Source: Escherichia phage YJin-2024a. From it: a DNA stretch of 64,000 bases. Shown in pieces: positions 1 to 63,636 of the stretch (its first letter is position 1; each line of letters opens with the position of its first letter). The notes below the pieces were generated by a model, which saw nothing but the letters and a program-made list of their open reading frames with translations, was not told the origin of the DNA and ran no database searches. The translations under genes and the position numbers were made by a program. The stretch lies in sequence record PP534475.1; one strand, given 5' to 3'.

Positions 1-306
1 TTTACCACTAGAAAGTGCATGCCATAACATATAGTCAGGAACAATTTGTTTGCTAGTAGTTTTGTCTTTATATGGCAGGATATAAGTAGAGAAACTCCAC
101 TCAGCTGCGTTTAAAGAGTCGTTAAAACGTTTAGAACCACGAGTTGGACGCGGACCAGCTTCATTAACAGTAATATCTGTTGAATTACTGTCCTGACCCC
201 AAGAAATATCATCCTGAACTAGAATCTCTTGCGTGTTGGTCTTATTATGACCAGTCTTAACCGTAGACACGAAGATTCGAGTATTACGTAATAGTTGTAA
301 AGACAT
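1..306 (-). CDS. major tail tube protein, N-terminal part (CDS runs off the window start)
   Basis: ATG at 304-306 preceded by AGGAG; lies immediately downstream of the neck genes in the late operon; product inferred from gene order. Confidence 0.5.
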   Translation of the reverse strand, partial: MSLQLLRNTRIFVSTVKTGHNKTNTQEILVQDDISWGQDSNSTDITVNEAGPRPTRGSKRFNDSLNAAEWSFSTYILPYKDKTTSKQIVPDYMLWHALSSGK

Positions 307-332
307 TTAATTATTTTCTCCTAATCTGTAAC

Positions 333-821
333 TTATCTGCGAAGTGACCTACGTGGAGGCTGATACCTCACTGTTACATTTATTTCTGCTAAACCATATG
401 GGGCCAGTAGACCCTCATCTGTACTAACTGATGTAATGATCATATCAGTTGCCTCACATGGGAAGGTCGATCCATTAGGTTTACTAACAGTATATTCTAA
501 ATTTCCACCTGTGTCAATAACGGTTTTTATATCCGCTACGAGTTTTTCCAGGGAAGTTTGAATGTCGCCATCTTTCTCTTTATCATACACCAGGATTGGA
601 AGTTCTAAAAACATCCACTGTTGGCCCGAAGGAAGATACTGCCCAGTTTCAGTTCCGATATGAACTGCCACATAAGGAAACTCTCGTATTTCCTCAAATT
701 TATAAGTTTGACGAGAAACGTTTCCGTATAGGTTATTAAAATATTCGTCAGGTTGAGAACCATCCATTTGTTTAGAGATTCGGTCAACCATAGCTTGTGC
801 AATACTTGTTCTATGATCCAT
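333..821 (-). CDS. tail completion / tail terminator-like protein
   Basis: 162 aa ORF between neck genes and the tail tube gene; assignment by synteny only. Confidence 0.45.
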   Translation of the reverse strand: MDHRTSIAQAMVDRISKQMDGSQPDEYFNNLYGNVSRQTYKFEEIREFPYVAVHIGTETGQYLPSGQQWMFLELPILVYDKEKDGDIQTSLEKLVADIKTVIDTGGNLEYTVSKPNGSTFPCEATDMIITSVSTDEGLLAPYGLAEINVTVRYQPPRRSLRR

Positions 822-824
822 TTA

Positions 825-1592
825 TTAAGTTCCTTGATTAACCTTAATTTTATATCTAGAGTGAATCAGGTCTCTTGCAGCTTTTGCTATAGCCTCACCA
901 ATAAGTTTTTGTGGGTTTCTAGCGCCAGGATAAGGTCGTAGAGATAATCTTCTGTATGTAGATACTGCCGGATTGAACACAGAATATGGACGAGTCATAT
1001 AATTATATGTTACGTTCAATTCAGGAGAGCCTTTACTAGTTTCAGAATCACGAAGCATAACATCTTTAATTTTTAAAGAGTTTGCAAAGCGACCGGTTCT
1101 AAATTTTAGTGGTGCTCCTGTCTTTTTCATATCCTTTATTAAGTACTCTTTAGCAACTATCTCTAGTATAACCTTCATATTGCTATTAGACACGAAACGT
1201 CCGGAAGCACCTGTTATTGCACCTGAATATCCATCCTCTACGTCTCTAGGATCCCCAAAGTTTACCTCTACTCTGCCTGTAGAACGTTTTTTACCTACAG
1301 CAGATTTTTTACCTGCGGTTGCCTGTATAAGATTTTCTAGAGCACCTAAATCTCCCGAAAGATCTAAACTAGAGGATACAGCTTTTAGTATAGAGGCTGT
1401 TCTAACATCAAGAAGATTTTGGGATACAGGTTTTGAAAACTTAAAAGATACTTGAGCAACAGTACCATCTCTGGTAGGATCTTTTAGCCCTGTTTCAACA
1501 GAGTACACAACAGTATTCTTATTATTTTCAGATCGTCCTGCAGTATCTAGCTGCTCTTTAATAATTTGTTTAGCTAGATCGGAAAGGGACAT
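825..1592 (-). CDS. structural (neck) protein, function unknown
   Basis: 255 aa ORF tightly packed in the head-tail joining block. Confidence 0.5.
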   Translation of the reverse strand: MSLSDLAKQIIKEQLDTAGRSENNKNTVVYSVETGLKDPTRDGTVAQVSFKFSKPVSQNLLDVRTASILKAVSSSLDLSGDLGALENLIQATAGKKSAVGKKRSTGRVEVNFGDPRDVEDGYSGAITGASGRFVSNSNMKVILEIVAKEYLIKDMKKTGAPLKFRTGRFANSLKIKDVMLRDSETSKGSPELNVTYNYMTRPYSVFNPAVSTYRRLSLRPYPGARNPQKLIGEAIAKAARDLIHSRYKIKVNQGT

Positions 1593-2104
1593 TATACCCT
1601 CCTATATACTTCAATAATAGTACGAATATGCTCTGGAATACCAGACTTAGTGCTATTGAAGGTCACTGTTTCACCACCAAGTGTTTTAGCTTGGCGATAA
1701 TCTTGTTTGTGCCAATGATCTACTAGCATACATGCTGCAAGTTTGAGATCTTCAGGTATTGGATTGAATCCACCTTGTGTATATGCTACGTCCATATAAC
1801 CCTCTGGAGGATTAAATTTGAGAAGGATAATACCGTCAGAGTATAGCTTATACTGCTCTGGGTCAATCTCATTATCGTTAATCGTCACTTTAGTTACGGA
1901 GGTAGCTGAGGGAGAACTTAAAAAGTATTTTTTACGAGTAGGTTTTGTATTGATTAACTGGTCTACCGCATCAGCGTCATCCATGCCTAGAAGGCTTGTA
2001 ATCAGTGCATTGGCAGCAGTAATCATCATTTCTACACCAGATTCTAATTCAGGTCGTTTTAAACCACCATATAATCTATAATCTTCAGCTGTGATGATTT
2101 GCAT
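1592..2104 (-). CDS. head completion / head-tail connector-like protein
   Basis: 170 aa ORF adjacent to 825..1592; synteny. Confidence 0.45.
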   Translation of the reverse strand: MQIITAEDYRLYGGLKRPELESGVEMMITAANALITSLLGMDDADAVDQLINTKPTRKKYFLSSPSATSVTKVTINDNEIDPEQYKLYSDGIILLKFNPPEGYMDVAYTQGGFNPIPEDLKLAACMLVDHWHKQDYRQAKTLGGETVTFNSTKSGIPEHIRTIIEVYRRV

Positions 2105-2818: not shown

Positions 2819-4195
2819 TTAAGATGCAGCGTAAGCACCAGATACAACGCCATTACTAAAGTAACGTTGCAGGTTAACACGCTGAGTAACGTAGTACGCG
2901 TCACGCTGTTTACCAGCTTGGCGCTCACGTTCAACAGTAACAGCACGCTGACGCGGCATTACGAAGTTATCTTTATAAACAATAACTGCGAACTCTGCAG
3001 AGTTAGCTTTAGCCGGGAAGAACTCAGAAACTACAACCGGCAGACCGTAAATACGACCAACCTGACCTTGCAGTTTAACAGCATCATTACCAACCTGGGC
3101 AACATCCTGCCATTCTTCATCTTCCAGCAGATCGTAATAAGCATCCATAGATACGATCAGTACCAGTTTGCTCAGTTTCAGACCATGACGACCCAGTTTA
3201 CGACGCAGTTTAGAGATAGTTTTAGCAGTTACTAGAACAGAACCATCAGCTTTAGCTTCAGTAATAACTTTAGCACTATCGCCTTCAGCCAGTTTCAGCA
3301 GACCCTTAGGCTTACCAGTACCGTCACCAGTCATGAAAGCTTCTTCGATAGAAACAGCGTGTGCTTCAATCAGACGCTTACGAAGCAGCGGCAGTAAGGA
3401 GAAGATTGCATCTTCTTCAGTTTCATCAGTAATGAAGGACTTAGCAGCCAGTTTGTAAGTACTGAAGTGAATTTCTTTAAGAGCACCTTTAACTTCACTA
3501 CCAGTGGTTTCATCAGTACCATAGGTAGAAGCAGCAACCCAAGTAGCTTTACCAGCATCTGGTTCAACCAGCATAGTAAGAATTTTGCTGGACATTGGCA
3601 GTTCTTCAAACAGAGCACCAACTACTAGTTCTTTTTGCAGGTCACGAATAATACGCTGGGAGAAAATAGTTTCATAATTTTCACTAGAAACTTCTACTGA
3701 AGAGGACTGGTTTACAGCTTTCAGGTGTCTCTGGCCATGTTCGGTATCAAATACACCTTTTTCCATCACGTAGGACAGAAGAACCAGTTTCTCCACTTCG
3801 TCTTCAAAGTTTTCTTGAGTACCATACAGTGCTTTAGCTACGCTATCACCGACGAAGGAACGACCTTCACGAGCTGCTAGCAGAGATTTAATTTCATCCT
3901 GAAGACCAACAATAGTTTCCTGCTGTTTTTCTACAGTCTGTGCAAACAGTTCCGCGCTCTTTTTAGATTTTTCATCCAGGGATTTAACCAGTTCCAGAGC
4001 TTCTTCTAGCTTCTGACGATCTTCGCCAACTGCTTTAGAAACCAGATCATTCATACGAGCCAGTTCTTTTTCTTCCTGCTCTTTACGCATACGTTCAGCT
4101 TCCGCAGCTTTCTGAGCAGCAGTCAGACCTTCCAGAGATTTAGCCAGATCACCCAGACCAAGTTCTTCCTTCAGCTTATTAATATCAATAGTCAT
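2819..4195 (-). CDS. major capsid protein with N-terminal scaffolding (delta) domain
   Basis: 458 aa; N-terminal ~150 aa charged coiled-coil region; directly downstream of prohead protease and portal. Confidence 0.85.
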   Translation of the reverse strand: MTIDINKLKEELGLGDLAKSLEGLTAAQKAAEAERMRKEQEEKELARMNDLVSKAVGEDRQKLEEALELVKSLDEKSKKSAELFAQTVEKQQETIVGLQDEIKSLLAAREGRSFVGDSVAKALYGTQENFEDEVEKLVLLSYVMEKGVFDTEHGQRHLKAVNQSSSVEVSSENYETIFSQRIIRDLQKELVVGALFEELPMSSKILTMLVEPDAGKATWVAASTYGTDETTGSEVKGALKEIHFSTYKLAAKSFITDETEEDAIFSLLPLLRKRLIEAHAVSIEEAFMTGDGTGKPKGLLKLAEGDSAKVITEAKADGSVLVTAKTISKLRRKLGRHGLKLSKLVLIVSMDAYYDLLEDEEWQDVAQVGNDAVKLQGQVGRIYGLPVVVSEFFPAKANSAEFAVIVYKDNFVMPRQRAVTVERERQAGKQRDAYYVTQRVNLQRYFSNGVVSGAYAAS

Positions 4196-4212: not shown

Positions 4213-4845
4213 TTATTCTTTAACGTAGCCTAAAGCTATCGCAAGTTTTTCTAGTTCAGAAAGATTACGTTCTTGAGCTGGGACAGCTTTAGAACTTATT
4301 GCAGTAAAAGATTTACGCCATTCAGTATAATCATGACCATTCATGCTCTTAGCGAGATTGAACGTTGAGTCCTGATTACAAGGTACAGAAACTACCGAAA
4401 CTTCGTATAGTTCTAAATCTTTAATAATAAATATATCAGTAGCTTCATCCCACTCTGCATCTAGGCAGCGGAATCCGATACTAAAAGTTTTCAGTACACC
4501 GTTTTTAATTAGTGAAAAGATAGCCGGATCGGAACTTTCATAGATCTCACATTCGATTTCGAGACCCATTTCAGTAGGGTTAAGATCAATACACTTACCG
4601 ATTGGACGACGATGATCGTGTCCGAAAAGAATAATCGGGTTTTTCATGTAGTTAGTAAGTGCATTAGACGTTTTCCATGCAGAAGCAGGAATTACATCAC
4701 CAGCGCGATCTTTACTAATTGTATTAGCGAATCCACGGATTTTTACAACACCCTCTTTGGATTCGCTATCAATAGATTTAATATAAGCATCTAAATGAAC
4801 CGGTGCTGATTTTAACTTGTTATAGTCAATAGCAGCTTGTGTCAT
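4213..4845 (-). CDS. prohead maturation protease
   Basis: 210 aa between portal and capsid; FGHDHRRPIGK-type motif. Confidence 0.8.
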   Translation of the reverse strand: MTQAAIDYNKLKSAPVHLDAYIKSIDSESKEGVVKIRGFANTISKDRAGDVIPASAWKTSNALTNYMKNPIILFGHDHRRPIGKCIDLNPTEMGLEIECEIYESSDPAIFSLIKNGVLKTFSIGFRCLDAEWDEATDIFIIKDLELYEVSVVSVPCNQDSTFNLAKSMNGHDYTEWRKSFTAISSKAVPAQERNLSELEKLAIALGYVKE

Positions 4846-4848
4846 TTA

Positions 4849-5172
4849 TTAGCCTCCAACACCGGGGTTAACCGTTGCTGTGCCTGCGGTAGAATCCTTA
4901 CTATCCGTCACCGTTGCTCCCTCTTTAACAGGCATGCTAGCAGTTAAATCCTTAGAAGGAGTTAGTGGTGGAGTAGTTGGAACTGCTGTACCATAAGCCT
5001 CTACAAATTTCTTCCATACTTTACGGTTAGTATACTCAGATGAAAGTCCTAGTTCTCTACGCAGAAAAGCACAGCTAGGAACATACTTATGTGCAGCAAC
5101 CGTAGCAAAGAAGATATGAGATTCTGGCAGTTTTTCACCAAAAATGGTCTTTAGACCATTATAATCAATCAT
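4849..5172 (-). CDS. hypothetical protein
   Basis: 107 aa ORF between portal and protease. Confidence 0.45.
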   Translation of the reverse strand: MIDYNGLKTIFGEKLPESHIFFATVAAHKYVPSCAFLRRELGLSSEYTNRKVWKKFVEAYGTAVPTTPPLTPSKDLTASMPVKEGATVTDSKDSTAGTATVNPGVGG

Positions 5173-6386
5173 TCTTTATCTCCCTCGGTGGAACCTTGAG
5201 GTCTACCACCTTCTTGACCAGATACGCCTGTTGCAGAACCAGCAACGTTAGCAGGAATACGAATCTTATTCATCTGCTCATCATCTAAAGGTTCAAGGTT
5301 CAGCTCTAAACGAGCTTCGTTACCAGTCATAATACCATTATTAACCAATGAGGTTAAATGTTTAGCCTCAGCTTCTTTATCTGGTGTTAATGCAGCTACT
5401 TCCTTAGTATTAGGAGTAATCTTATAACCAAAAAAGAAAGTAAGAGAACTAGTCAGCTTGTTCAGCATAGGGATGATAGTCATGTAATAGAACAGTTCGA
5501 TATTTGGTCGAATGTTCGCATTATTACCACCATCAAGTAGCACCTGCGGAACACCAAAGGCTAGACAGATGGATTTATTAAATCCTTCGATGTCTTCCTT
5601 AAAGTCTAGATCTTTAAAAGAGGATATTTGGGAGTACGGTTTAGCTTTCATACCACCATCTAGAATCAGGACAGAGGACTGACCAGTACTAGGATTATAA
5701 TCTAGTTGTAATTCTTCTTGTTTACGCTCACGCAATTTCTTGTTCAGGATTTCATCCGTCTCAAGAATAAGACCAATCACGGTTCCGTTATCGAGGAATT
5801 TCTCTTTAAAGTTAAGCATCTTAGAACGCTTCTCAAGAGAATCGATAACAGTAGCAACACGAGATTGTCCAGAAATTTGAGAATTTGTGCCACACACGTA
5901 ACTGTTATCCTTTATAAAGATAATCTCATCTACGCGATAGTCTATCTGGTTATTAAATATAAATTTTTTGATAAACTTATTGGCATCTGCCTCTACTTGC
6001 ATTAGTGCAGCAGGGACATGGTAAAGTGCTGTGCCATCCCAATAGATGTATGCACAACCTTCAAAAAGTAGGTCAGTGACTACAAGTCTACGGAATGTGC
6101 TTATATCCATGAATGGATTAGGTCGTACATTTAAGAGAGTGTCTAGAGTCTTTGTCTTGATGCCGTTAGCATACGTGACAATATTATATTTATCTCCGAC
6201 AGTATAAGAACACTCCGCCGCACTATCTATAACCATATTAGCAGTTCTATTGAGAATCTCAATTTTACTGTAGGCTTGTCCAGTGGTAAAAGGCTTACGG
6301 TTAGTGCGATGACTAACTGGTTCCATGTCTCTTATAATACGTTGACCCGGATTTAGCTTTTCAGTAATCCAGCTTTTAAAACCCAT
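5169..6386 (-). CDS. portal protein
   Basis: 405 aa; position between terminase and protease. Confidence 0.8.
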   Translation of the reverse strand: MGFKSWITEKLNPGQRIIRDMEPVSHRTNRKPFTTGQAYSKIEILNRTANMVIDSAAECSYTVGDKYNIVTYANGIKTKTLDTLLNVRPNPFMDISTFRRLVVTDLLFEGCAYIYWDGTALYHVPAALMQVEADANKFIKKFIFNNQIDYRVDEIIFIKDNSYVCGTNSQISGQSRVATVIDSLEKRSKMLNFKEKFLDNGTVIGLILETDEILNKKLRERKQEELQLDYNPSTGQSSVLILDGGMKAKPYSQISSFKDLDFKEDIEGFNKSICLAFGVPQVLLDGGNNANIRPNIELFYYMTIIPMLNKLTSSLTFFFGYKITPNTKEVAALTPDKEAEAKHLTSLVNNGIMTGNEARLELNLEPLDDEQMNKIRIPANVAGSATGVSGQEGGRPQGSTEGDKE

Positions 6387-20583: not shown

Positions 20584-21118
20584 ATAAAATCCAGAAATGT
20601 GTTTTCAAAAAATGTCTCCTAGAAATAACCGCCCTCCCCATAACCGCCCTGTATTAAACCGCCTAGTATATGTTCCTAGAAACTTAGGAGAACCGCCCAC
20701 TAGAAGTATGATATCTCGTGAGAACTCTGGAGTTTCTAGGAAAGTGTTGTGCCATCCTAGCAGATGAGTGGCAACCGGTGTATCATCTTGAATGTAAATT
20801 ATGTGGACAAAAGTTTTACCTTTTATTTAAATAAAAGATCCCCAGGGTTCTCATATAGAGCTTTGCCCCCGCCAGAAGGTCTCGTGGTGTTTCTAGCAAT
20901 TTATATTAAATTACTTATTAACTTGTCCTGTCGCTCCGTATCCTCCGCTACAAGTTAGTAATTTTAAATTACTGAACCACCACACCTTCTGTGTGGCAAC
21001 TCTAAATGGTTAATTCTATTAACTCATAGAGTTATGATAACATACATTTAGCTATCTGTCAACGAGAGTTTGTATTTGAGTCTCGGTACAGGTATTGTGC
21101 ACCGAGACATGCAGGATC

Positions 21119-22003
21119 TTACAGTAACTCTTGGTATGCTTTTTGATACGCCTCAGTGTCAGTAGGTGTACCTTTTGCTAGTGCAATTAATTCATCTGTT
21201 ATCTGAATATTCGTATTATAACGTGTGTGGAACTCGTTAGGAATTTCTAGGTATCTATTGATGAATGCTGCAGCAAGCGGTGTGACTAAACCAATCTCTA
21301 GAGATAGCTTAACTTGTTTTTCGTAGATTAAATATTGAGAATCAGATGGGATTGGTTGGGTTACGTCAGTTTTCTCCGGTTCTTTTTCTGGAAGCAATGG
21401 ATTATTATATAATGCTTCATCTGGAAGCACAGATTTACGCTCTTTAAATATATAAGTTTCTAGATCCGATGCTTTAGATCCTGAGTATACCGCAAAGACG
21501 CTAGCTTTACCCTGGGATGCCCTAACTGGTAAATAACTAGTAGGATAGCTTCTTAATGCATCATGGAATGGACTTCCTGAGTACTTGTACGTATCCCCAT
21601 AGAGATCATCAATATTCATTCGTTCATCTTCAAAAATGTGAAAAGAGCTAAATGATGGGATAGTAAAGTATTCCATCTGTAACCCATAAACTAAGAAACG
21701 GTGTGCATATGCGCTAATCTTTAAGACTGTGAATGCTTTTTCACCTTCCTTATAAGAATTGCCCTTTGAAGTAACTTGATAACGTTTACAAAACATCTCT
21801 ACTAGACGTTTCTCATTAATATTAAGGGTGGAGTACAGTCGTCCACTTAATCCTATAAGTGCATCGAACATAAATGCTAGTTTATCTTTTTCTTCCTGAG
21901 ATAGTTCTGGAAACGGTAATACTTTCGCATTAGGAACATTATTGTTCTCTTTAGGTTTTGTTTTACCAGCATTTTGTCTTAGTTTATCTTTAAAGTTATA
22001 CAT
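21119..22003 (-). CDS. hypothetical early protein (294 aa)
   Basis: ATG with GGGAG RBS; first gene after the repeat region. Confidence 0.6.
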   Translation of the reverse strand: MYNFKDKLRQNAGKTKPKENNNVPNAKVLPFPELSQEEKDKLAFMFDALIGLSGRLYSTLNINEKRLVEMFCKRYQVTSKGNSYKEGEKAFTVLKISAYAHRFLVYGLQMEYFTIPSFSSFHIFEDERMNIDDLYGDTYKYSGSPFHDALRSYPTSYLPVRASQGKASVFAVYSGSKASDLETYIFKERKSVLPDEALYNNPLLPEKEPEKTDVTQPIPSDSQYLIYEKQVKLSLEIGLVTPLAAAFINRYLEIPNEFHTRYNTNIQITDELIALAKGTPTDTEAYQKAYQELL

Positions 22004-24451: not shown

Positions 24452-24860
24452 GGTAGAGGTTTCCTGTGTCAGTTGGTAAGAAGGATGATTGAGCTTTAGG
24501 TGGATGTTGTTTAGCAATCCAGTTAAGAATCAGTACACGACTAGGAACAATATCAGTGTTGTACCAGAAATCATGAACCCATTGACGAGCATCCTCAAAC
24601 TTACCAAATTTATATGCTTTCTTAAACAATTTAAACCCAAAACAATCTGGTGTAAAGTCTACTTCACGATACTGAACTACTTTAGAACCAGTTAGGTCTT
24701 GGATCGCTGCATTAATTTCTGTATGCGAGAATTTTGTCTCGTGAAACTTATTAAAGAATCGGTAGTTGAAGCGTCCGTTCGTTTCGACAAACAACTGGAT
24801 AAAGAGATCGTTAAATTGATTATCAAACCAGTAATTCTGTAGTTGTTGTAGTGCTGTCAT
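24399..24860 (-). CDS. hypothetical protein (153 aa)
   Basis: ORF only. Confidence 0.45.
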   Translation of the reverse strand: MTALQQLQNYWFDNQFNDLFIQLFVETNGRFNYRFFNKFHETKFSHTEINAAIQDLTGSKVVQYREVDFTPDCFGFKLFKKAYKFGKFEDARQWVHDFWYNTDIVPSRVLILNWIAKQHPPKAQSSFLPTDTGNLYHDRKEKSIAGADEGMGE

Positions 24861-30566: not shown

Positions 30567-30980
30567 TTAAACTAGTTCGACATGACCGCCATCATAGGTA
30601 CCACGTTTTATTTCATCGTGATAGTCTCCCGAAGCATTCCAATCAGCACCAAAACGAAGTTTAATGCCTAGTTCTTTACCTGCTTGTTCAAAAGCCTTTT
30701 TAACTGCCCAAAATGCTTCTAAGTCATTCCAATCAATCTTGCCATTAATGTATGGGGCAAAATCAAGAGCATCTCCAGTAATATGCTTGCTTTTACTAGG
30801 ATCTTTTAAAAATGAAGTACCGTTAGCAATATTCTGGGCACTTTGTGCTACTGTACGAATACCCTGTACGATCGTGAAATCATATGGAGATAATTCTAAA
30901 GCTCTACGAGCTACTTTTTGTAGCTCTGGCTTAACGGTAGCTAATTGTTTTTCGCTATTTTTACCAAATTTAAAACTCAT
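30567..30980 (-). CDS. endolysin, L-alanyl-D-glutamate peptidase (M15-type)
   Basis: 137 aa; HITGDALDF and DGGHVEL zinc-peptidase motifs. Confidence 0.8.
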   Translation of the reverse strand: MSFKFGKNSEKQLATVKPELQKVARRALELSPYDFTIVQGIRTVAQSAQNIANGTSFLKDPSKSKHITGDALDFAPYINGKIDWNDLEAFWAVKKAFEQAGKELGIKLRFGADWNASGDYHDEIKRGTYDGGHVELV

Positions 30981-31633
30981 ATTGATCTACCTAAAGATCT
31001 CTGTTGTGGGGAACAGAGCTTTGTTAAATACTCGTTAAATTTCTCAGAATCGGCTGCATCTACAGGATTATCTTTCCAAGCAATACCAATATATCCAGCA
31101 TAGATATTGTTTAGATTGAAATACGGACAAGTGTATATGTAATTAAAAGTAACGTTCTTAAACGCAGGTATATTTAACCCCATGTATTTATTTACTTTTA
31201 CACTTAAATCCGATGCGTAGTTAAAGCCGTCTAAGTGACGTCTATATAGCTCAGACGTCTTATTTACCGCTTTATCGGCCAAGTCAGCCCTATCTAATTG
31301 CGCATTGCTTTCCCATGCAATAATGTTAGAATAATCATTAATGGCATCGGGTTTATACTTGACTACAAAAACAGCATCCGCACCCGTTTGGGAAAAAAGC
31401 ACCATGCTCTTTTCTCTAGCTACGTTAGGAAAATTACTTATCCTTTGAGTTTGAACATCCTGTAGAACCGCAGACGTGGAGAAAGTCTTTAAGAATGACA
31501 TCACCTCACTAGTATTACTAACAAATAAGAAAATAATGACAGCAACTAAGATAGTTAGCAGACGTTTAAGAAGCGATGCTGGATCTTTCGCTTCTTGGAG
31601 CAGTACCGTTAATAATTGTAAGAACTTTTCCAA
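30977..31633 (-). CDS. holin-like membrane protein
   Basis: 218 aa with TM helix, immediately upstream of and overlapping the endolysin gene; apparent TTG start after GGAGG. Confidence 0.55.
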   Translation of the reverse strand: MEKFLQLLTVLLQEAKDPASLLKRLLTILVAVIIFLFVSNTSEVMSFLKTFSTSAVLQDVQTQRISNFPNVAREKSMVLFSQTGADAVFVVKYKPDAINDYSNIIAWESNAQLDRADLADKAVNKTSELYRRHLDGFNYASDLSVKVNKYMGLNIPAFKNVTFNYIYTCPYFNLNNIYAGYIGIAWKDNPVDAADSEKFNEYLTKLCSPQQRSLGRSI

Positions 31634-31686: not shown

Positions 31687-31789
31687 TGTGTTTTTAAAGA
31701 TCACTTCTGGAGCATAAAATTTTGTCGTTGTCAAGAAGAATTTTAGATAAAAGAAAAGCCAGGGTCGTTAAACCCTGGCTTAAAATTAC

Positions 31790-32389
31790 TTACTCTTCTT
31801 TATGCTCCTCTGATTGAGGTAACTGGGCTTTATTATATTGCTCAGATCGATATTTTGCCAAGATTTCAATACGCTTATGGATTTCTTTGCTATCTAGATA
31901 GATATTTTTGTTGTCTTTTACCATCTCGTCGATTTCGTCTATTGAGAAGAACGGATAGTAGACATCTAGCATCATATCTTCTACGAACTTGTTGTAAGAT
32001 TCATAGGCTTTCTTGATTTCTTGACCTTTCTCGCAGAACCCGCCAGAGAACGTGTGTCCCATTAGCGTAGCATGCGGATGTACTACCCATCCATGACAGG
32101 ATAGGAAAATTGTGCAGTAAGCAGAAGCACTAGGACCAACCAGATGTCCTATAACTGTTCCACGGCAATTAGCAATTAAGTTAGATAACTGTGCAGCAGT
32201 ATCAACATAACCACCTGGACCATTAATCATCAGATTAATTTCGTCGTCCTCATTTGCCTGCATAAGTACCATTGATAAATCACGGTATTCATCCGGCGGG
32301 CCTAATTCTTCATCAAAGAAAAAGGTATACTCATTAGATTGGCGAATGGAGTGAAACAGGTTAGTCTTTTCTTCTTTTTTATTAGTCAT
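31790..32389 (-). CDS. ClpP-like serine protease
   Basis: INGPGG and GPSAS motifs aligning with ClpP INSPGG and GQAAS. Confidence 0.6.
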   Translation of the reverse strand: MTNKKEEKTNLFHSIRQSNEYTFFFDEELGPPDEYRDLSMVLMQANEDDEINLMINGPGGYVDTAAQLSNLIANCRGTVIGHLVGPSASAYCTIFLSCHGWVVHPHATLMGHTFSGGFCEKGQEIKKAYESYNKFVEDMMLDVYYPFFSIDEIDEMVKDNKNIYLDSKEIHKRIEILAKYRSEQYNKAQLPQSEEHKEE

Positions 32390-32401
32390 AGCGATCCTTG
32401 A

Positions 32402-33154
32402 TTATCCAACTAGTGGTTCTAGCTCTAAGTCACAGAAGTTATAAACTTCTAGTTTAAGGTTATTGATACCATCGAATTTATTAACTAATTCGTGAGTAAT
32501 ATATTTTGCAGGAATACCACTTTCAGATGGATGATCTGATTTAATAGTGAACTTCTGCTCAGCGGGTACTACATTTACTATCAAAGAATCCATATCTAAA
32601 TGGTTTGTTTCTCTGAGTAACTCTCCTTCATTGGGGAATCTAACATCTGTTATTACGGCGACATCTGGGTCGTCTTTAGCGATGGATTGCTCCAGAATTA
32701 TGAGCCAAATGCGTTCATGCACCAGCTGCCTTCCTAGCTCTGTTCCTACGAGCTGTAACATTTTTCTCGGAGAAATAAATAAACTATAAAGTCCGTCTTC
32801 TTTACTCTCTGAGATAAGTTGTTGAGGATTAAGATATTTTTCCTCAAAAATAGGCCAAACGTGCGAGAAGTCTTCAAACTTATCGATACCGTACTTAAAC
32901 CACACATCTCTGGCTCGCTCCAATTGAGATTGTGTGACCGTAAACCATTGGTCAATCTCTTTTCCCCTGCGCTCTCCTAGAAACTCTGGAGTTACACCGA
33001 GGATTACGGATGCAAGTTCATAAACGGGCTTAGCAAAACTATAACGACGGGATAAACACGTTGGATACGTGTCATTACACCAATCGATAATTAATTTTGC
33101 AACGGTATCTTTTCCCGAACCAGCTTCACCATGTAAACCGACTAATACTGACAT
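32402..33154 (-). CDS. deoxynucleoside monophosphate kinase
   Basis: P-loop GEAGSGKDT; 250 aa. Confidence 0.7.
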   Translation of the reverse strand: MSVLVGLHGEAGSGKDTVAKLIIDWCNDTYPTCLSRRYSFAKPVYELASVILGVTPEFLGERRGKEIDQWFTVTQSQLERARDVWFKYGIDKFEDFSHVWPIFEEKYLNPQQLISESKEDGLYSLFISPRKMLQLVGTELGRQLVHERIWLIILEQSIAKDDPDVAVITDVRFPNEGELLRETNHLDMDSLIVNVVPAEQKFTIKSDHPSESGIPAKYITHELVNKFDGINNLKLEVYNFCDLELEPLVG

Positions 33155-33507
33155 TAATCTTTCCTATTGTTAATTGGTGGATAATATACTAAACAACGTT
33201 TTTCTTGCAAATCTTGACGATAGAAGCAAACCATACCTGTCAGTCGTGAAATATATGAATATTCTGCCTCACGGCATTTTGCCAACATATTCCAATCTTT
33301 ATATGGTACAACAACTACTACGCCATCTTCTCCATTTGTAGCTAATTTCTTTTCAAACTTAAAGTCAAAGCTACAAGGTTGGAGTCCTTTAGGCCAATCT
33401 ACATGAGCTGTTGGTAACTCATGTGAGGGTTCTGGCTTTATTTCTTGCGCACAGCCTGTGATTGTGATTGCGGCTGCGAGCAGTATTCCACACTTCCAGA
33501 AAGACAT
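33154..33507 (-). CDS. lipoprotein, o-spanin-like
   Basis: Signal peptide with lipobox ITGC; overlaps the 3' end of 33438..33881. Confidence 0.45.
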   Translation of the reverse strand: MSFWKCGILLAAAITITGCAQEIKPEPSHELPTAHVDWPKGLQPCSFDFKFEKKLATNGEDGVVVVVPYKDWNMLAKCREAEYSYISRLTGMVCFYRQDLQEKRCLVYYPPINNRKD

Positions 33508-33881
33508 GCTAATCTCTCCTCAAATTCTTTACTCTGCTTTTTAGCAATTAATGTTACCAATCCAGGCTTTGCAGCTATAATGTCTTGACGACTAAGTGCT
33601 TTATCAAGCTGACTAATCTTTTTGTCTAGATCTGCTTGCGAAATATTATTCATTGTGAAATACTGATTCATTCTAGTCTCACGAAGTTCGCTTTCAGCTT
33701 TCACTTTATTAAGGGAAGTCTCTAGAGAAGAAATCTTTTTAGTAGCTACCGCAAGATCTCCCGCCAAAGTCTCCACTTTATTTACTAAGTGATAAGCACC
33801 GAATCCGATGCCTATCGCTAGACCTGCTCCCAGGATATACCACTTACCTTTCCATAGAGAACCGATAAAGTTTTTTATCAT
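33438..33881 (-). CDS. membrane-anchored coiled-coil protein, i-spanin-like
   Basis: N-terminal TM helix plus long coiled coil; overlaps the downstream lipoprotein gene. Confidence 0.45.
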   Translation of the reverse strand: MIKNFIGSLWKGKWYILGAGLAIGIGFGAYHLVNKVETLAGDLAVATKKISSLETSLNKVKAESELRETRMNQYFTMNNISQADLDKKISQLDKALSRQDIIAAKPGLVTLIAKKQSKEFEERLACLSGSVEYCSQPQSQSQAVRKK

Positions 33882-34558
33882 CTTTTCATATTCCTGAATG
33901 ACGTAACCGTATCAAATCCATGTGCTGCTAGACGGTCTTTATCTGATACAGTAATCATATCAGGCTCGCCCGTCCCTAACACGCCCCAGATATATTGCTC
34001 GATCATCTGGTGCAAACGGTATAAGTTACTTTCAATTTCCTGCCACGGAATACCTGATAGGTGTAGACGCGGATTAGTTATAATCTTGAAGTATTTATTG
34101 CTATCTTTATCATTTGGAACTAATGAATCTAGAACTGCTAGCGGTACTCTTAGCTCAGATAAGGCTTCTTTAGCTTTCGGGGTAACTTCTTCTTGCCACG
34201 ATAAGATCGACTCTTTTGGCTTCCCTCTGTTTATGTCTAGCAAAGAAAACCCTGTTGACCATCCCTTCTCATCTAAAATTTCTAACGCCTTGTCCAGACT
34301 GAAGGTTTTTACTTGGGTATCCAGTACATCAATGTGGTATAACCAGTAAATCTCCCCAGCTAGGAAGAAAGGCAAAATTTTAAAGTAGCCAATCTTCCCC
34401 TCAATACGAGCAATCCTACGTTCTTGCATGATCATATAGTTGCCCTCATCTGGGGCTTTTATTGTTAGCTCTTCAGTTTTACGTTCCCAAACACGATCTG
34501 CGTCAAATAAACTGTTCTGCAAATCATACACATCTACGAATTTAGAGATGATTCTCAT
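33878..34558 (-). CDS. hypothetical protein (226 aa)
   Basis: ORF with PN25-like promoter upstream. Confidence 0.55.
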   Translation of the reverse strand: MRIISKFVDVYDLQNSLFDADRVWERKTEELTIKAPDEGNYMIMQERRIARIEGKIGYFKILPFFLAGEIYWLYHIDVLDTQVKTFSLDKALEILDEKGWSTGFSLLDINRGKPKESILSWQEEVTPKAKEALSELRVPLAVLDSLVPNDKDSNKYFKIITNPRLHLSGIPWQEIESNLYRLHQMIEQYIWGVLGTGEPDMITVSDKDRLAAHGFDTVTSFRNMKR

Positions 34559-34589
34559 ATTTAATCCTCTTGCCTCAATCTATGAGTAT

Positions 34590-34618
34590 ATTATACAAAA
34601 GTTTGGGCATCTAAGCAA
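34590..34618 (-). promoter_or_regulatory. early sigma70 promoter, PN25-like family
   Basis: TTGCTT-17-TATAAT on the minus strand. Confidence 0.55.
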
Positions 34619-34712
34619 CTAAAATTTTATTATAAAAATAGCCCAGTCGCAAAAGTGCAGGCTGGGCTTTGTCATTATTTGCTTTTGCTAGTAAGTTGAT
34701 TTAGCATCAATC

Positions 34713-62807: not shown

Positions 62808-63560
62808 TTACACCTTCCCCATGTCTTTAAAAATATCATAGAATGCTTTAGACTCAACAGAACGAACGTTATCAATCAGTTCGATCATTGAGAATGGGGC
62901 ATTTTCGTATTTCTCATAGACTTCCATAAGGAGTGCTAGACCTGAGTCACCTTTAATGTCTTTCTGAGCTATATCTCCGCAGATAATTAAACGGCAGTCT
63001 TGTCCTACACGAGTTAGGAGACAAATCATTGCCTCAACGGAAATATTCTGAGCTTCATCGACAATTACATAGGAGTTGTTGAAAGTTCTGCCACGAGCAT
63101 GTTCGATAGCCAAAAATTTAATTTTCTGACGTTCGACATATCCCTTATAGGCATGATCGCCGATGGCCCATTTCATACCATCAGCTATTGGCTCCAACCA
63201 AGGCTCTAGCTTTTCTGCTAGATCACCAGGAAGCATACCAAGAGACTTACCTAGAGGTTCATTAGGACGTACGAGAATCACCTGCTCAATATCTGAGTGA
63301 ATGTCTACGAGTTCCTGAGCTGCAAGAACGGACGGAATAAAGGTTTTACCAGTACCTGGCTCACCGATACCCACAGTCACTGTGTTGTTCTTGATCATAT
63401 TGATATATGATTTTTGCTCGCGGTTTTTACCTACTAGGGATTTAGCAACTGGGTTAGCGTAATCATTAGAAAAATCAGCCTGAATTACGTTATTCTCATA
63501 TTTGTTGCCACGCTTTCTTGAACCATTGCGGTTCTCTCTTTTTTGACGTGCTTTTCCCAT
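62808..63560 (-). CDS. phoH: PhoH-like ATPase
   Basis: Walker A GEPGTGKTF; start at the ATG with AGGAG RBS (the ORF track begins at an upstream GTG). Confidence 0.85.
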   Translation of the reverse strand: MGKARQKRENRNGSRKRGNKYENNVIQADFSNDYANPVAKSLVGKNREQKSYINMIKNNTVTVGIGEPGTGKTFIPSVLAAQELVDIHSDIEQVILVRPNEPLGKSLGMLPGDLAEKLEPWLEPIADGMKWAIGDHAYKGYVERQKIKFLAIEHARGRTFNNSYVIVDEAQNISVEAMICLLTRVGQDCRLIICGDIAQKDIKGDSGLALLMEVYEKYENAPFSMIELIDNVRSVESKAFYDIFKDMGKV

Positions 63561-63636
63561 AAATAACACTCCTATAGTGTACTTCGCTTCTAACAGAGGA
63601 TCAACAAAGAGATCTTGTTTATCAACTTACAAATAC

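What the first reader, a model, noticed from the sequence alone, without database searches (positions are those of the whole stretch)
31790..32389. ClpP-like protease in the early region, separate from the prohead protease
The 199 aa protein aligns with the ClpP core (INGPGG, Ser in GPSAS, downstream His), yet capsid maturation is already covered by the prohead protease at 4213..4845. An early-expressed ClpP homologue could redirect host Clp ATPases or degrade host factors.
Basis: partly seen in the sequence, partly recalled or inferred. Interest (0 to 1): 0.4.

Follow-up and report, generated by a model that had tools for sequence, protein, structure and literature searches.

The report
T5-type phage ClpP-like early protease
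This is the well-conserved but functionally uncharacterised ClpP-like protease gene of T5-type phages (orthologue of T5.042): a real second protease, separate from the capsid-maturation one, that lacks the features a ClpP needs to dock onto the host's ClpX/ClpA motors.

Summary

The third triad residue is Asn162, not Asp, in the T5-like clade. The three aromatic residues of the ClpX/ClpA docking patch (E. coli Y74/Y76/F96) are N52/M54/N74. The N-terminal axial loop has no counterpart. Direct recruitment of host Clp ATPases is therefore unlikely, and the database label "ATP-dependent" is unsupported.

The protein belongs to a large phage family (PHROG 1827 and relatives) encoded in non-structural regions of many large virulent phages, often directly after a PhoH-like ATPase gene. 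The gene is already annotated, and the literature calls its function unknown. My best guess is a chaperone-independent, ring-forming accessory peptidase. Moderate-to-low interest.

The parts
31790..32389 (-). CDS of the 199-aa ClpP-fold serine peptidase subunit, orthologue of phage T5 T5.042 (PHROG 1827)
32123..32125 (-). Codon TCT for Ser89, the predicted nucleophile (G-P-S-A-S89)
   Evidence: Aligns with the E. coli ClpP catalytic Ser111 (precursor numbering). Invariant in 161/161 representatives.
32054..32056 (-). Codon CAC for His112, the predicted general base
   Evidence: Aligns with E. coli ClpP His136. Invariant in 161/161 representatives.
31904..31906 (-). Codon AAT for Asn162, at the position of the ClpP catalytic Asp
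   Evidence: Aligns with E. coli D185. It is Asn in all relatives of at least 55% identity. Representatives overall have D in 118, E in 25 and N in 8 of 161.
32395..32399 (-). Shine-Dalgarno AAGGA, 5 nt upstream of the ATG and just after the dNMP kinase stop codon (32402..32404)
   Evidence: Read directly from the sequence.
31756..31781 (-). Intrinsic terminator (11-bp stem with 6 GC pairs, then a T-run) ending the operon 9 nt after the ClpP-like stop codon
   Evidence: Terminator scan. T5 has an annotated terminator at the equivalent position, 21114..21143.
32402..34558 (-). Upstream genes of the same transcription unit: T5.047 homologue (33878..34558), i-spanin (33438..33881), o-spanin lipoprotein (33154..33507) and dNMP kinase (32402..33154)
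   Evidence: ORFs. Pfam DNMK. T5 annotation of the syntenic region. No terminator-like site on the - strand between them.
34585..34618 (-). Candidate sigma-70 operon promoter: TTGCTT-17 nt-TATAAT followed by ATACT (T5 early promoters carry an ATATT-type discriminator)
   Evidence: Read from the sequence. T5 annotates a promoter at the equivalent place upstream of T5.047. Discriminator consensus from PMC7472727. Inferred only, not tested.

Best explanation
The ORF is the orthologue of phage T5 gene T5.042 in a T5-like Salmonella phage. It encodes a cytoplasmic 23-kDa subunit with the ClpP fold, including the 'handle' helix, and a Ser89-His112 catalytic pair. Asn162 takes the place of the usual Asp. 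It is the last gene of an early-type sigma-70 operon (T5.047 homologue, spanins, dNMP kinase, ClpP-like, terminator). It is independent of the S78 prohead protease that matures the capsid. It belongs to a large family that in this survey was seen only in phage or phage-like contigs, and that lies in non-structural (early, nucleotide-metabolism) regions of many large virulent phages. I infer that it assembles into ClpP-type rings and works as a chaperone-independent peptidase on peptides or unfolded proteins in the infected cell. This would be an accessory, condition-dependent function and not a morphogenetic one. It would not dock directly to host ClpX/ClpA, because it lacks both docking elements. 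Shown: gene, fold, conserved Ser/His, Asn substitution, missing docking residues, operon position, family distribution, purifying selection. Inferred: ring assembly, catalytic activity, ATPase independence, substrates.
Against: No biochemical data exist for any member; the BF23 paper states that the function is currently unknown (PMC10644984). Asn at the Asp position accompanies an inactive enzyme in Listeria ClpP1 unless a partner ring is present (PMC9257651), so autonomous activity of the T5-clade protein is uncertain. Oligomeric state and pore gating could not be modelled with these tools. The CRISPRi-ART 'Not Fit' call is weak evidence: only 17 of 162 T5 genes scored Fit, and the screen missed 13 of 50 known essential T4 genes. 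Traces of the BF23 orthologue in purified virions do not fit a purely cytoplasmic accessory role. Strong conservation suggests a more specific function than generic peptide clearance.
Confidence: 0.45

Rival explanations
1. Direct hijack of host unfoldases: phage ClpP-like rings bind host ClpX/ClpA and divert them to new substrates, or titrate them.
For: ClpP fold with conserved Ser/His. Early expression context. Database label 'ATP-dependent protease'.
Against: The aromatic docking patch Y74/Y76/F96 is N52/M54/N74, and other pocket positions are polar. There is no conserved N-terminal loop. It scores far below the ClpP equivalog cutoffs: TIGR00493 gives 15.9 against 308.6 bits. It scores higher against phage head-maturation ClpP-like models than against cellular ClpP models. 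The 'ATP-dependent' label comes from sequence similarity only.
Confidence: 0.08
2. ClpP1-like partner ring: a phage heptamer with an impaired Ser-His-Asn triad stacks on a host ClpP heptamer. The hybrid tetradecamer is driven by ClpX/ClpA through the host ring, changing the cleavage specificity or rate of the host machine.
Against: Only 16% identity to E. coli ClpP, and no evidence that the handle interfaces are compatible. Most family members in other phages keep Asp or Glu, so the Asn is a clade-specific change and not the family's defining trait. Hosts range from Vibrio to Pseudomonas, with different ClpPs.
Confidence: 0.1
3. Second morphogenetic or virion-associated protease that processes a non-capsid virion protein (for example a tail or internal protein), or is itself packaged.
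For: Its best non-self profile hits are phage head-maturation ClpP-like families: phrog_1684 at 6.5e-21 and NF045542 at 2e-10. The BF23 orthologue was detected in purified virions, at an intensity similar to low-copy tail proteins (PMC10644984).
Against: It is encoded in an early operon far from the structural module, here and in every other lineage inspected. NF045542 scores 40.9 bits against a cutoff of 120. The early enzyme DHFR was also found in the same virion preparation, which suggests carry-over. T5.042 knock-down was 'Not Fit', although that is weak evidence.
Confidence: 0.12
4. Partner of the phage PhoH-like ATPase: the ClpP-like ring and PhoH form a phage-encoded two-component machine.
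For: A PhoH gene lies immediately upstream and colinear in at least 223 phage records from several unrelated genera (PMC7289586). The window encodes PhoH at 62808..63569. PhoH and the ClpP-like gene are both among the 8 most conserved Tequintavirus core genes.
Against: In this phage the two genes are about 30 kb apart. PhoH-family proteins are described as RNA helicase-type ATPases and not as protein unfoldases (PMC7824862). Adjacency could reflect a shared early-expression module. Many family members lack a neighbouring PhoH gene.
Confidence: 0.07
5. Catalytically dead pseudo-protease, retained as a scaffold or decoy, or a lysis-timing factor linked to the adjacent T-type holin.
For: Asn162 replaces the Asp. 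The order ClpP-like, holin T, endolysin is kept on a contig where the endolysin is a different type, CHAP.
Against: Ser and His are invariant under dN/dS 0.05, which argues for catalysis. A terminator and a separate promoter divide the gene from the holin. Other lineages show no link to lysis genes.
Confidence: 0.08

Closest known systems
Phage T5 gene T5.042 / BF23 ORF45 'ATP-dependent (Clp) protease' (PHROG 1827)
   Same: Orthologue: 98.5% protein identity, same length, same operon position between dnk and the holin, same terminator. Full-length PHROG 1827 match at 1.8e-90.
   Different: Essentially nothing differs: three conservative substitutions, V84I, E194G and K197N. The function of the T5/BF23 protein is itself unknown (PMC10644984).
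Cellular ClpP (MEROPS S14, Pfam PF00574), e.g. E. coli ClpP
   Different: Only about 16-23% identity. Asp is replaced by Asn162. The aromatic IGF/LGF-loop pocket is not conserved (N52/M54/N74). There is no N-terminal axial loop and no propeptide. A long C-terminal helix 167-189 with an acidic tail replaces the ClpP C-terminus. It scores far below the ClpP equivalog cutoffs.
Listeria monocytogenes ClpP1 (PDB 4jcq / 4ryf)
   Different: LmClpP1 is a cellular paralogue that works by stacking on ClpP2 encoded in the same genome. No partner ClpP is encoded by the phage, and most members of the phage family keep Asp or Glu.
ClpP-related phage head maturation proteases (NCBIfam NF045542; phrog_1684, phrog_94)
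   Same: These are the best-scoring non-self profiles. They are phage-encoded ClpP-fold proteases that act without Clp ATPases (established knowledge about prohead proteases).
   Different: It scores below the NF045542 cutoff (40.9 against 120 bits). It is not next to portal, scaffold or capsid genes, and it has no scaffold or capsid-targeting extension. The phage has its own S78 prohead protease.
SppA / phage lambda gpC type S49 peptidases and NfeD
   Different: Those enzymes use a Ser-Lys dyad, whereas here His112 is invariant. The structural and sequence scores are clearly lower than for ClpP.

Membership tests
Pfam CLP_protease (PF00574) / MEROPS S14 fold family | Profile score above the curated gathering threshold | tested here: met
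   33.7 bits against a cutoff of 20.2, E=4.2e-8, covering residues 41-139. The family profile against PDB ClpP gives E=1.7e-18 over positions 40-171.
Pfam CLP_protease (PF00574) / MEROPS S14 fold family | ClpP alpha/beta fold with handle (strand plus long helix E) | tested here: met
Pfam CLP_protease (PF00574) / MEROPS S14 fold family | Ser-His-Asp catalytic triad | tested here: inconclusive
   Ser89 and His112 align and are invariant. The Asp position is Asn162 in this protein and its T5-like relatives, and Asp or Glu in 143/161 family representatives.
Canonical ATP-dependent ClpP (partner of ClpX/ClpA; TIGR00493 / PRK00277 equivalogs) | Score above the NCBIfam equivalog or subfamily cutoffs | tested here: not met
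   TIGR00493 gives 15.9 against 308.6 bits, and PRK00277 gives 22.8 against 249 bits.
Canonical ATP-dependent ClpP (partner of ClpX/ClpA; TIGR00493 / PRK00277 equivalogs) | Hydrophobic/aromatic apical pocket that binds the IGF/LGF loops (E. coli Y74, Y76, F96 and others) | tested here: not met
   The profile alignment maps these to N52, M54 and N74. Further pocket positions are H82, V84, V102 and H104, and family-wide these columns are mostly polar or charged. Residue roles come from PMC4416901. This is a sequence-level test only.
Canonical ATP-dependent ClpP (partner of ClpX/ClpA; TIGR00493 / PRK00277 equivalogs) | Conserved N-terminal axial loop that gates the pore and contacts the unfoldase | tested here: not met
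   Residues 1-19 are predicted coil, with pLDDT 63 for residues 1-10. The family alignment shows no conserved N-terminal column. Homology to ClpP starts at about residue 19.
Canonical ATP-dependent ClpP (partner of ClpX/ClpA; TIGR00493 / PRK00277 equivalogs) | Heptameric rings stacked into a tetradecamer | not testable with these tools
   Only monomer prediction is available, and artificial concatenated sequences are not accepted.
ClpP-related head maturation protease (NF045542) | Profile score above cutoff, and a location in the head module next to portal, scaffold and capsid genes | tested here: not met
   40.9 against 120 bits. The gene lies about 27 kb from the head module in an early operon, and the head module has its own S78 protease.
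PHROG 1827 'ATP-dependent protease' (T5.042 family) | Full-length profile match, and conserved position downstream of dnk in Demerecviridae | tested here: met
   E=1.8e-90 over residues 1-198 of 199. Synteny with T5 and with relatives down to 40% identity.
SppA/S49 Ser-Lys dyad peptidases | Catalytic Lys instead of His, and best structural match to SppA | tested here: not met

The most novel reading that the evidence does not exclude
The ClpP-like ring does not work alone. Either it pairs with the phage's own PhoH-like ATPase, giving a previously undescribed ATP-dependent protease built on a non-AAA+ motor. Or, like Listeria ClpP1, it stacks on the host ClpP ring to reprogram host ClpXP/ClpAP. 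The PhoH to ClpP-like gene pair is adjacent and colinear in at least 223 phage genomes of several unrelated genera. Both genes are among the eight most conserved Tequintavirus core genes.
Probability: 0.12. Interest if true: 0.75.

Novelty: already known. Interest (0 to 1): 0.3.

Why it matters
T5 is a classic model phage. T5.042 is one of its few near-invariant core genes, yet nobody knows what it does. This analysis gives three concrete points for anyone who takes it up.

- The inherited label "ATP-dependent Clp protease subunit" is probably misleading, because both ClpX/ClpA docking elements are missing.
- The T5 clade carries a Ser-His-Asn triad like Listeria ClpP1, which in that system means "inactive without a partner ring".
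- The wider family is a common accessory gene of large virulent phages, and is frequently coupled to PhoH, itself a long-standing phage gene of unknown role.

If a partner or a substrate were found, it would reveal a phage-directed proteolysis pathway. If not, this remains an ordinary, already catalogued accessory gene.

Tried and rejected
- The search for related loci with the family alignments A2 and A3 failed because no stretch was conserved enough. A single distant protein, P0030, found nothing in viral contigs. Contexts were taken instead from the look-up of encoding contigs and from annotated phage records.
- The afdb50 structure library was not available.
- Model coordinates are not exposed to the sandbox, so neither the triad geometry nor a structure-based pocket comparison could be measured. 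The pocket test rests on profile alignment.
- Literature searches for phage ClpP or T5 Clp protease found no functional study. The AKFV33 T5-like proteomics paper does not mention the protein.
- The Ser-Lys dyad (SppA-like) reading was considered because Lys121 ('G-K-G') is conserved in 133/161 representatives. It was rejected because His112 is invariant and ClpP is the better structural match.
- Host-derived clpP capture was considered. It is unlikely given 16% identity to E. coli ClpP and higher scores against phage ClpP-like profiles.
- Long family members (290-357 aa) were checked for informative extra domains. None was found beyond one marginal Mut7-C hit.
- Upstream neighbours in PaoP5, VBP47 and contig L015 were checked for PhoH or dnk and were negative.

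Full report
**What the window is.** The 2.5 kb around the finding is 100% identical to Salmonella phages vB_SenS_PHB06 and SP33. It matches 448 T5-like phage records. The region is syntenic with phage T5 coordinates 19.9-24.5 kb. The gene order on the minus strand is:
- T5.047 homologue, 33878..34558
- i-spanin, 33438..33881
- o-spanin, 33154..33507
- dNMP kinase dnk, 32402..33154
- the ClpP-like gene, 31790..32389
- a terminator
- a promoter, then T-type holin, 30977..31633
- M15 endolysin, 30567..30980

The finding is therefore the orthologue of T5.042, which T5 annotates as 'ATP-dependent protease, identified by sequence similarity'.

**Checking the observation.**
- The 199-aa ORF is real. 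It has an AAGGA ribosome-binding site 5 nt upstream of the ATG, and its stop codon is followed after 9 nt by an 11-bp-stem terminator at 31756..31781.
- Against T5.042 it shows 18 synonymous and 3 non-synonymous codon differences. That gives dN/dS 0.05 at dS 0.17, so the gene is a protein under strong purifying selection.
- Pfam CLP_protease is hit above threshold: 33.7 against 20.2 bits, E=4.2e-8.
- phmmer finds Coxiella ClpP (3q7h) at E=1.9e-5. A profile of 145 family members finds ClpP structures at E=1.7e-18 across positions 40-171.
- The AlphaFold model built on that alignment is confident, with pLDDT 93.3 and pTM 0.86.
S89 and H112 align with the ClpP nucleophile and base, and both are invariant in 161/161 representatives.
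- The separate prohead protease at 4213..4845 is a Peptidase_S78 (E=1e-18), lying between the portal (5169..6386) and the major capsid protein (2819..4195).

*The third triad residue.* The position aligned with E. coli Asp185 (precursor numbering; position verified) is Asn162. All relatives of at least 55% identity have Asn. Among 161 representatives the column holds D in 118, E in 25, N in 8 and T in 6. The Ser-His-Asn triad is therefore a feature of the T5-like clade within a family that otherwise keeps an acidic residue. The same triad (Ser98/His123/Asn172) occurs in Listeria ClpP1. That protein is an inactive heptamer on its own, cannot bind AAA+ chaperones, and becomes active only when stacked on a ClpP2 ring (PMC9257651).

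*The ATPase-docking elements.* ClpP binds ClpX, ClpA or ClpC through an N-terminal loop at the pore and a hydrophobic patch. In E. coli the patch centres on Y74, Y76 and F96 (PMC4416901).
- The hhalign and MAFFT alignments map those three residues to N52, M54 and N74.
- Four further pocket positions (I104, M106, F126, L128) map to H82, V84, V102 and H104.
- Across the family these columns are dominated by N, H, E, S and D.
- The first 19 residues are predicted coil, with low confidence for residues 1-10. They are not conserved in the family, and homology to ClpP starts at about residue 19.
- The C-terminus is a long helix (167-189) with an acidic tail in place of the ClpP C-terminus.
- The protein scores far below the NCBIfam ClpP cutoffs: TIGR00493 gives 15.9 against 308.6 bits.

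At the sequence level, both defining features of an 'ATP-dependent' ClpP are not met.

**Family and distribution.**
- The protein matches PHROG 1827 'ATP-dependent protease' end to end (1.8e-90). The next matches are phrog_5410 and then several ClpP-like 'head maturation protease' PHROGs, such as phrog_1684 at 6.5e-21.
- In NCBIfam the best hit is the ClpP-related head maturation protease model, though below its cutoff. By profile score the family is therefore closer to phage ClpP-like proteases than to cellular ClpP.
- An exhaustive HMMER scan of 1.84 billion representatives finds 1,924 clusters at E<=1e-3 and 945 at E<=1e-10. The 150 listed are mostly 190-260 aa proteins aligned over nearly the whole query.
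- tblastn finds the family in 1,331 phage records.

**Genomic contexts.**
- Demerecviridae-like contigs down to 35-40% identity keep the spanin/dnk ... ClpP-like ... holin/endolysin neighbourhood.
- In Barbavirus the gene lies between PhoH and Dam.
- In Pakpunavirus PaoP5 it lies among small early genes near the tRNAs, dCMP deaminase and ligase.
- In the T4-type Schizotequatrovirus phi-Grn1 it lies between DHFR and the recombinase.
- In Vibrio phage K406 it follows PIN-PhoH, and in Otagovirus phiPsa397 it follows PhoH.
- None of these is a head module.

The 'second, non-morphogenetic ClpP-like protease' is thus a recurrent accessory gene of large virulent phages, not a T5 peculiarity. Iyer et al. 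already noted patchily distributed phage ClpP homologues and suggested they are deployed against the host (PMC7824862).

**Expression class.** The ClpP-like start codon lies 12 nt after the dnk stop codon, with no terminator between them. The operon has a TTGCTT-17-TATAAT-ATACT promoter at 34585..34618, where T5 annotates one. The motif resembles the ATATT discriminator reported for T5 early promoters. 'Early' is an inference from synteny and promoter type. I found no direct transcript data.

**What is known experimentally.**
- The BF23 orthologue (ORF45) was detected at low intensity in purified virions. The intensity was comparable to low-copy tail proteins, but the early enzyme DHFR was also present. 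The authors state that its function is unknown (PMC10644984).
- It is one of eight core genes above 80% identity across 185 Tequintavirus genomes (PMC12639943).
- In a genome-wide CRISPRi-ART knock-down of T5, T5.042 scored 'Not Fit' with annotation status 'Ambiguous' (PMC11879866 supplement). That screen called only 17 of 162 T5 genes Fit and missed 13 of 50 essential T4 genes. This is weak evidence for dispensability under laboratory conditions.

**Most likely mechanism.**
- Shown: a ClpP-fold subunit with a handle helix, an invariant Ser/His pair under strong selection, made from an early operon, not linked to the head module, and lacking both ClpX/ClpA docking elements.
- Inferred: it forms ClpP-type rings and acts without an unfoldase on peptides or unfolded or flexible proteins in the infected cytoplasm, as an accessory, condition-dependent function.

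I put this at about 0.45. The main uncertainty is whether the Asn-triad version is active alone.

**Rivals.**
- Direct hijack of ClpX/ClpA (0.08), contradicted by the docking tests.
- A ClpP1-like ring that stacks on host ClpP (0.10). The Asn triad and missing chaperone sites favour it, but most of the family keeps Asp and identity to host ClpP is 16%.
- A second morphogenetic or virion-associated protease (0.12). Profile affinity and the BF23 proteomics favour it; gene position in every lineage argues against it.
- A partner of phage PhoH (0.07).
- A dead scaffold or a lysis-timing factor (0.08). Invariant Ser/His argue against the first. A terminator plus a separate promoter before the holin argue against the second.

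**Side observation on PhoH.** I used a concatenated PhoH plus ClpP-like protein from phiPsa397 as a tblastn query. At least 223 phage records contain the two genes adjacent and colinear. They include Otagovirus, KIL-type phages, Acinetobacter phiAB441, Alteromonas V22, Pseudaeromonas KLEP7 and 137-kb Vibrio phages. Barbavirus and K406 show the same pairing in the contexts inspected directly. In this window PhoH is at 62808..63569 (Pfam 3.3e-61), about 30 kb away. The linkage may only reflect a shared early module, but it is the most interesting lead that came out of the work.

**Verdict.**
- The specific mechanism offered, redirecting host Clp ATPases, is not supported by the sequence.
- The gene is already known and annotated, with unknown function. 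The new points here are refinements: the Asn triad, the absent docking sites, the family breadth and the PhoH linkage.
- Interest 0.3.

Noticed in passing
window 62808..63569 (-); loci L006 4198..5720, L014 3190..4555, L012 2302..4933: A PhoH-like ATPase gene lies immediately upstream of, and colinear with, the ClpP-like family member in several unrelated phage genera. A concatenated-query tblastn found this arrangement in at least 223 records. In this window PhoH (Pfam 3.3e-61) is about 30 kb from the ClpP-like gene. Both are among the eight most conserved Tequintavirus core genes.
   Followed up: partly
window 31904..31906 (-), codon for Asn162: The Asp-to-Asn change at the third triad position is confined to the T5-like clade (at least 55% identity). 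More distant Demerecviridae-like and other phage homologues keep Asp or Glu. This mirrors the Ser-His-Asn triad of Listeria ClpP1.
   Followed up: partly
window 33878..33881 junction (i-spanin / T5.047 homologue): T5 carries the HNH homing endonuclease hegF (F-TflVI) between the i-spanin (T5.045) and T5.047. The window has no such gene, and the two ORFs abut directly.
   Followed up: no
window about 32965..32975, inside the dNMP kinase gene: The sequence around the T5 'major DNA single-chain interruption' (CCCTGCGCTCTCC, nick consensus Pu-GCGC) is conserved at the equivalent position in dnk. This suggests the phage has the same site-specific nick there.
   Followed up: partly
window 33438..33507: The i-spanin (33438..33881) and the o-spanin lipoprotein (33154..33507, lipobox ITGC) overlap by 70 nt in different frames. 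The spanin pair is separated from the holin and endolysin by dnk and the ClpP-like gene, so the lysis cassette is split across two transcription units.
   Followed up: no
window 34634..34667 (-): A stem-loop with a T-run (GCCCAG...CTGGGC TATTTTT) lies directly upstream of the operon promoter. It matches the terminator that T5 annotates at 24513..24546. A second promoter-like site (TTGCGA-17-TAAAAT, 34652..34624) overlaps it.
   Followed up: no
locus L005 (2.2-kb metagenomic contig), 59..2050: A 35%-identical family member is followed by a T-type holin and then a CHAP-type endolysin, where the window has an M15 endolysin. The ClpP-like to holin order is therefore kept although the endolysin type has been exchanged.
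   Followed up: no
window residue Lys121 (codon 32027..32029, -) and Arg173/Arg181: A 'G-K-G' motif at the start of the handle helix has Lys in 133/161 representatives, where ClpP has Gln. Two C-terminal-helix arginines are nearly invariant in the phage family. Their role is unknown.
   Followed up: no
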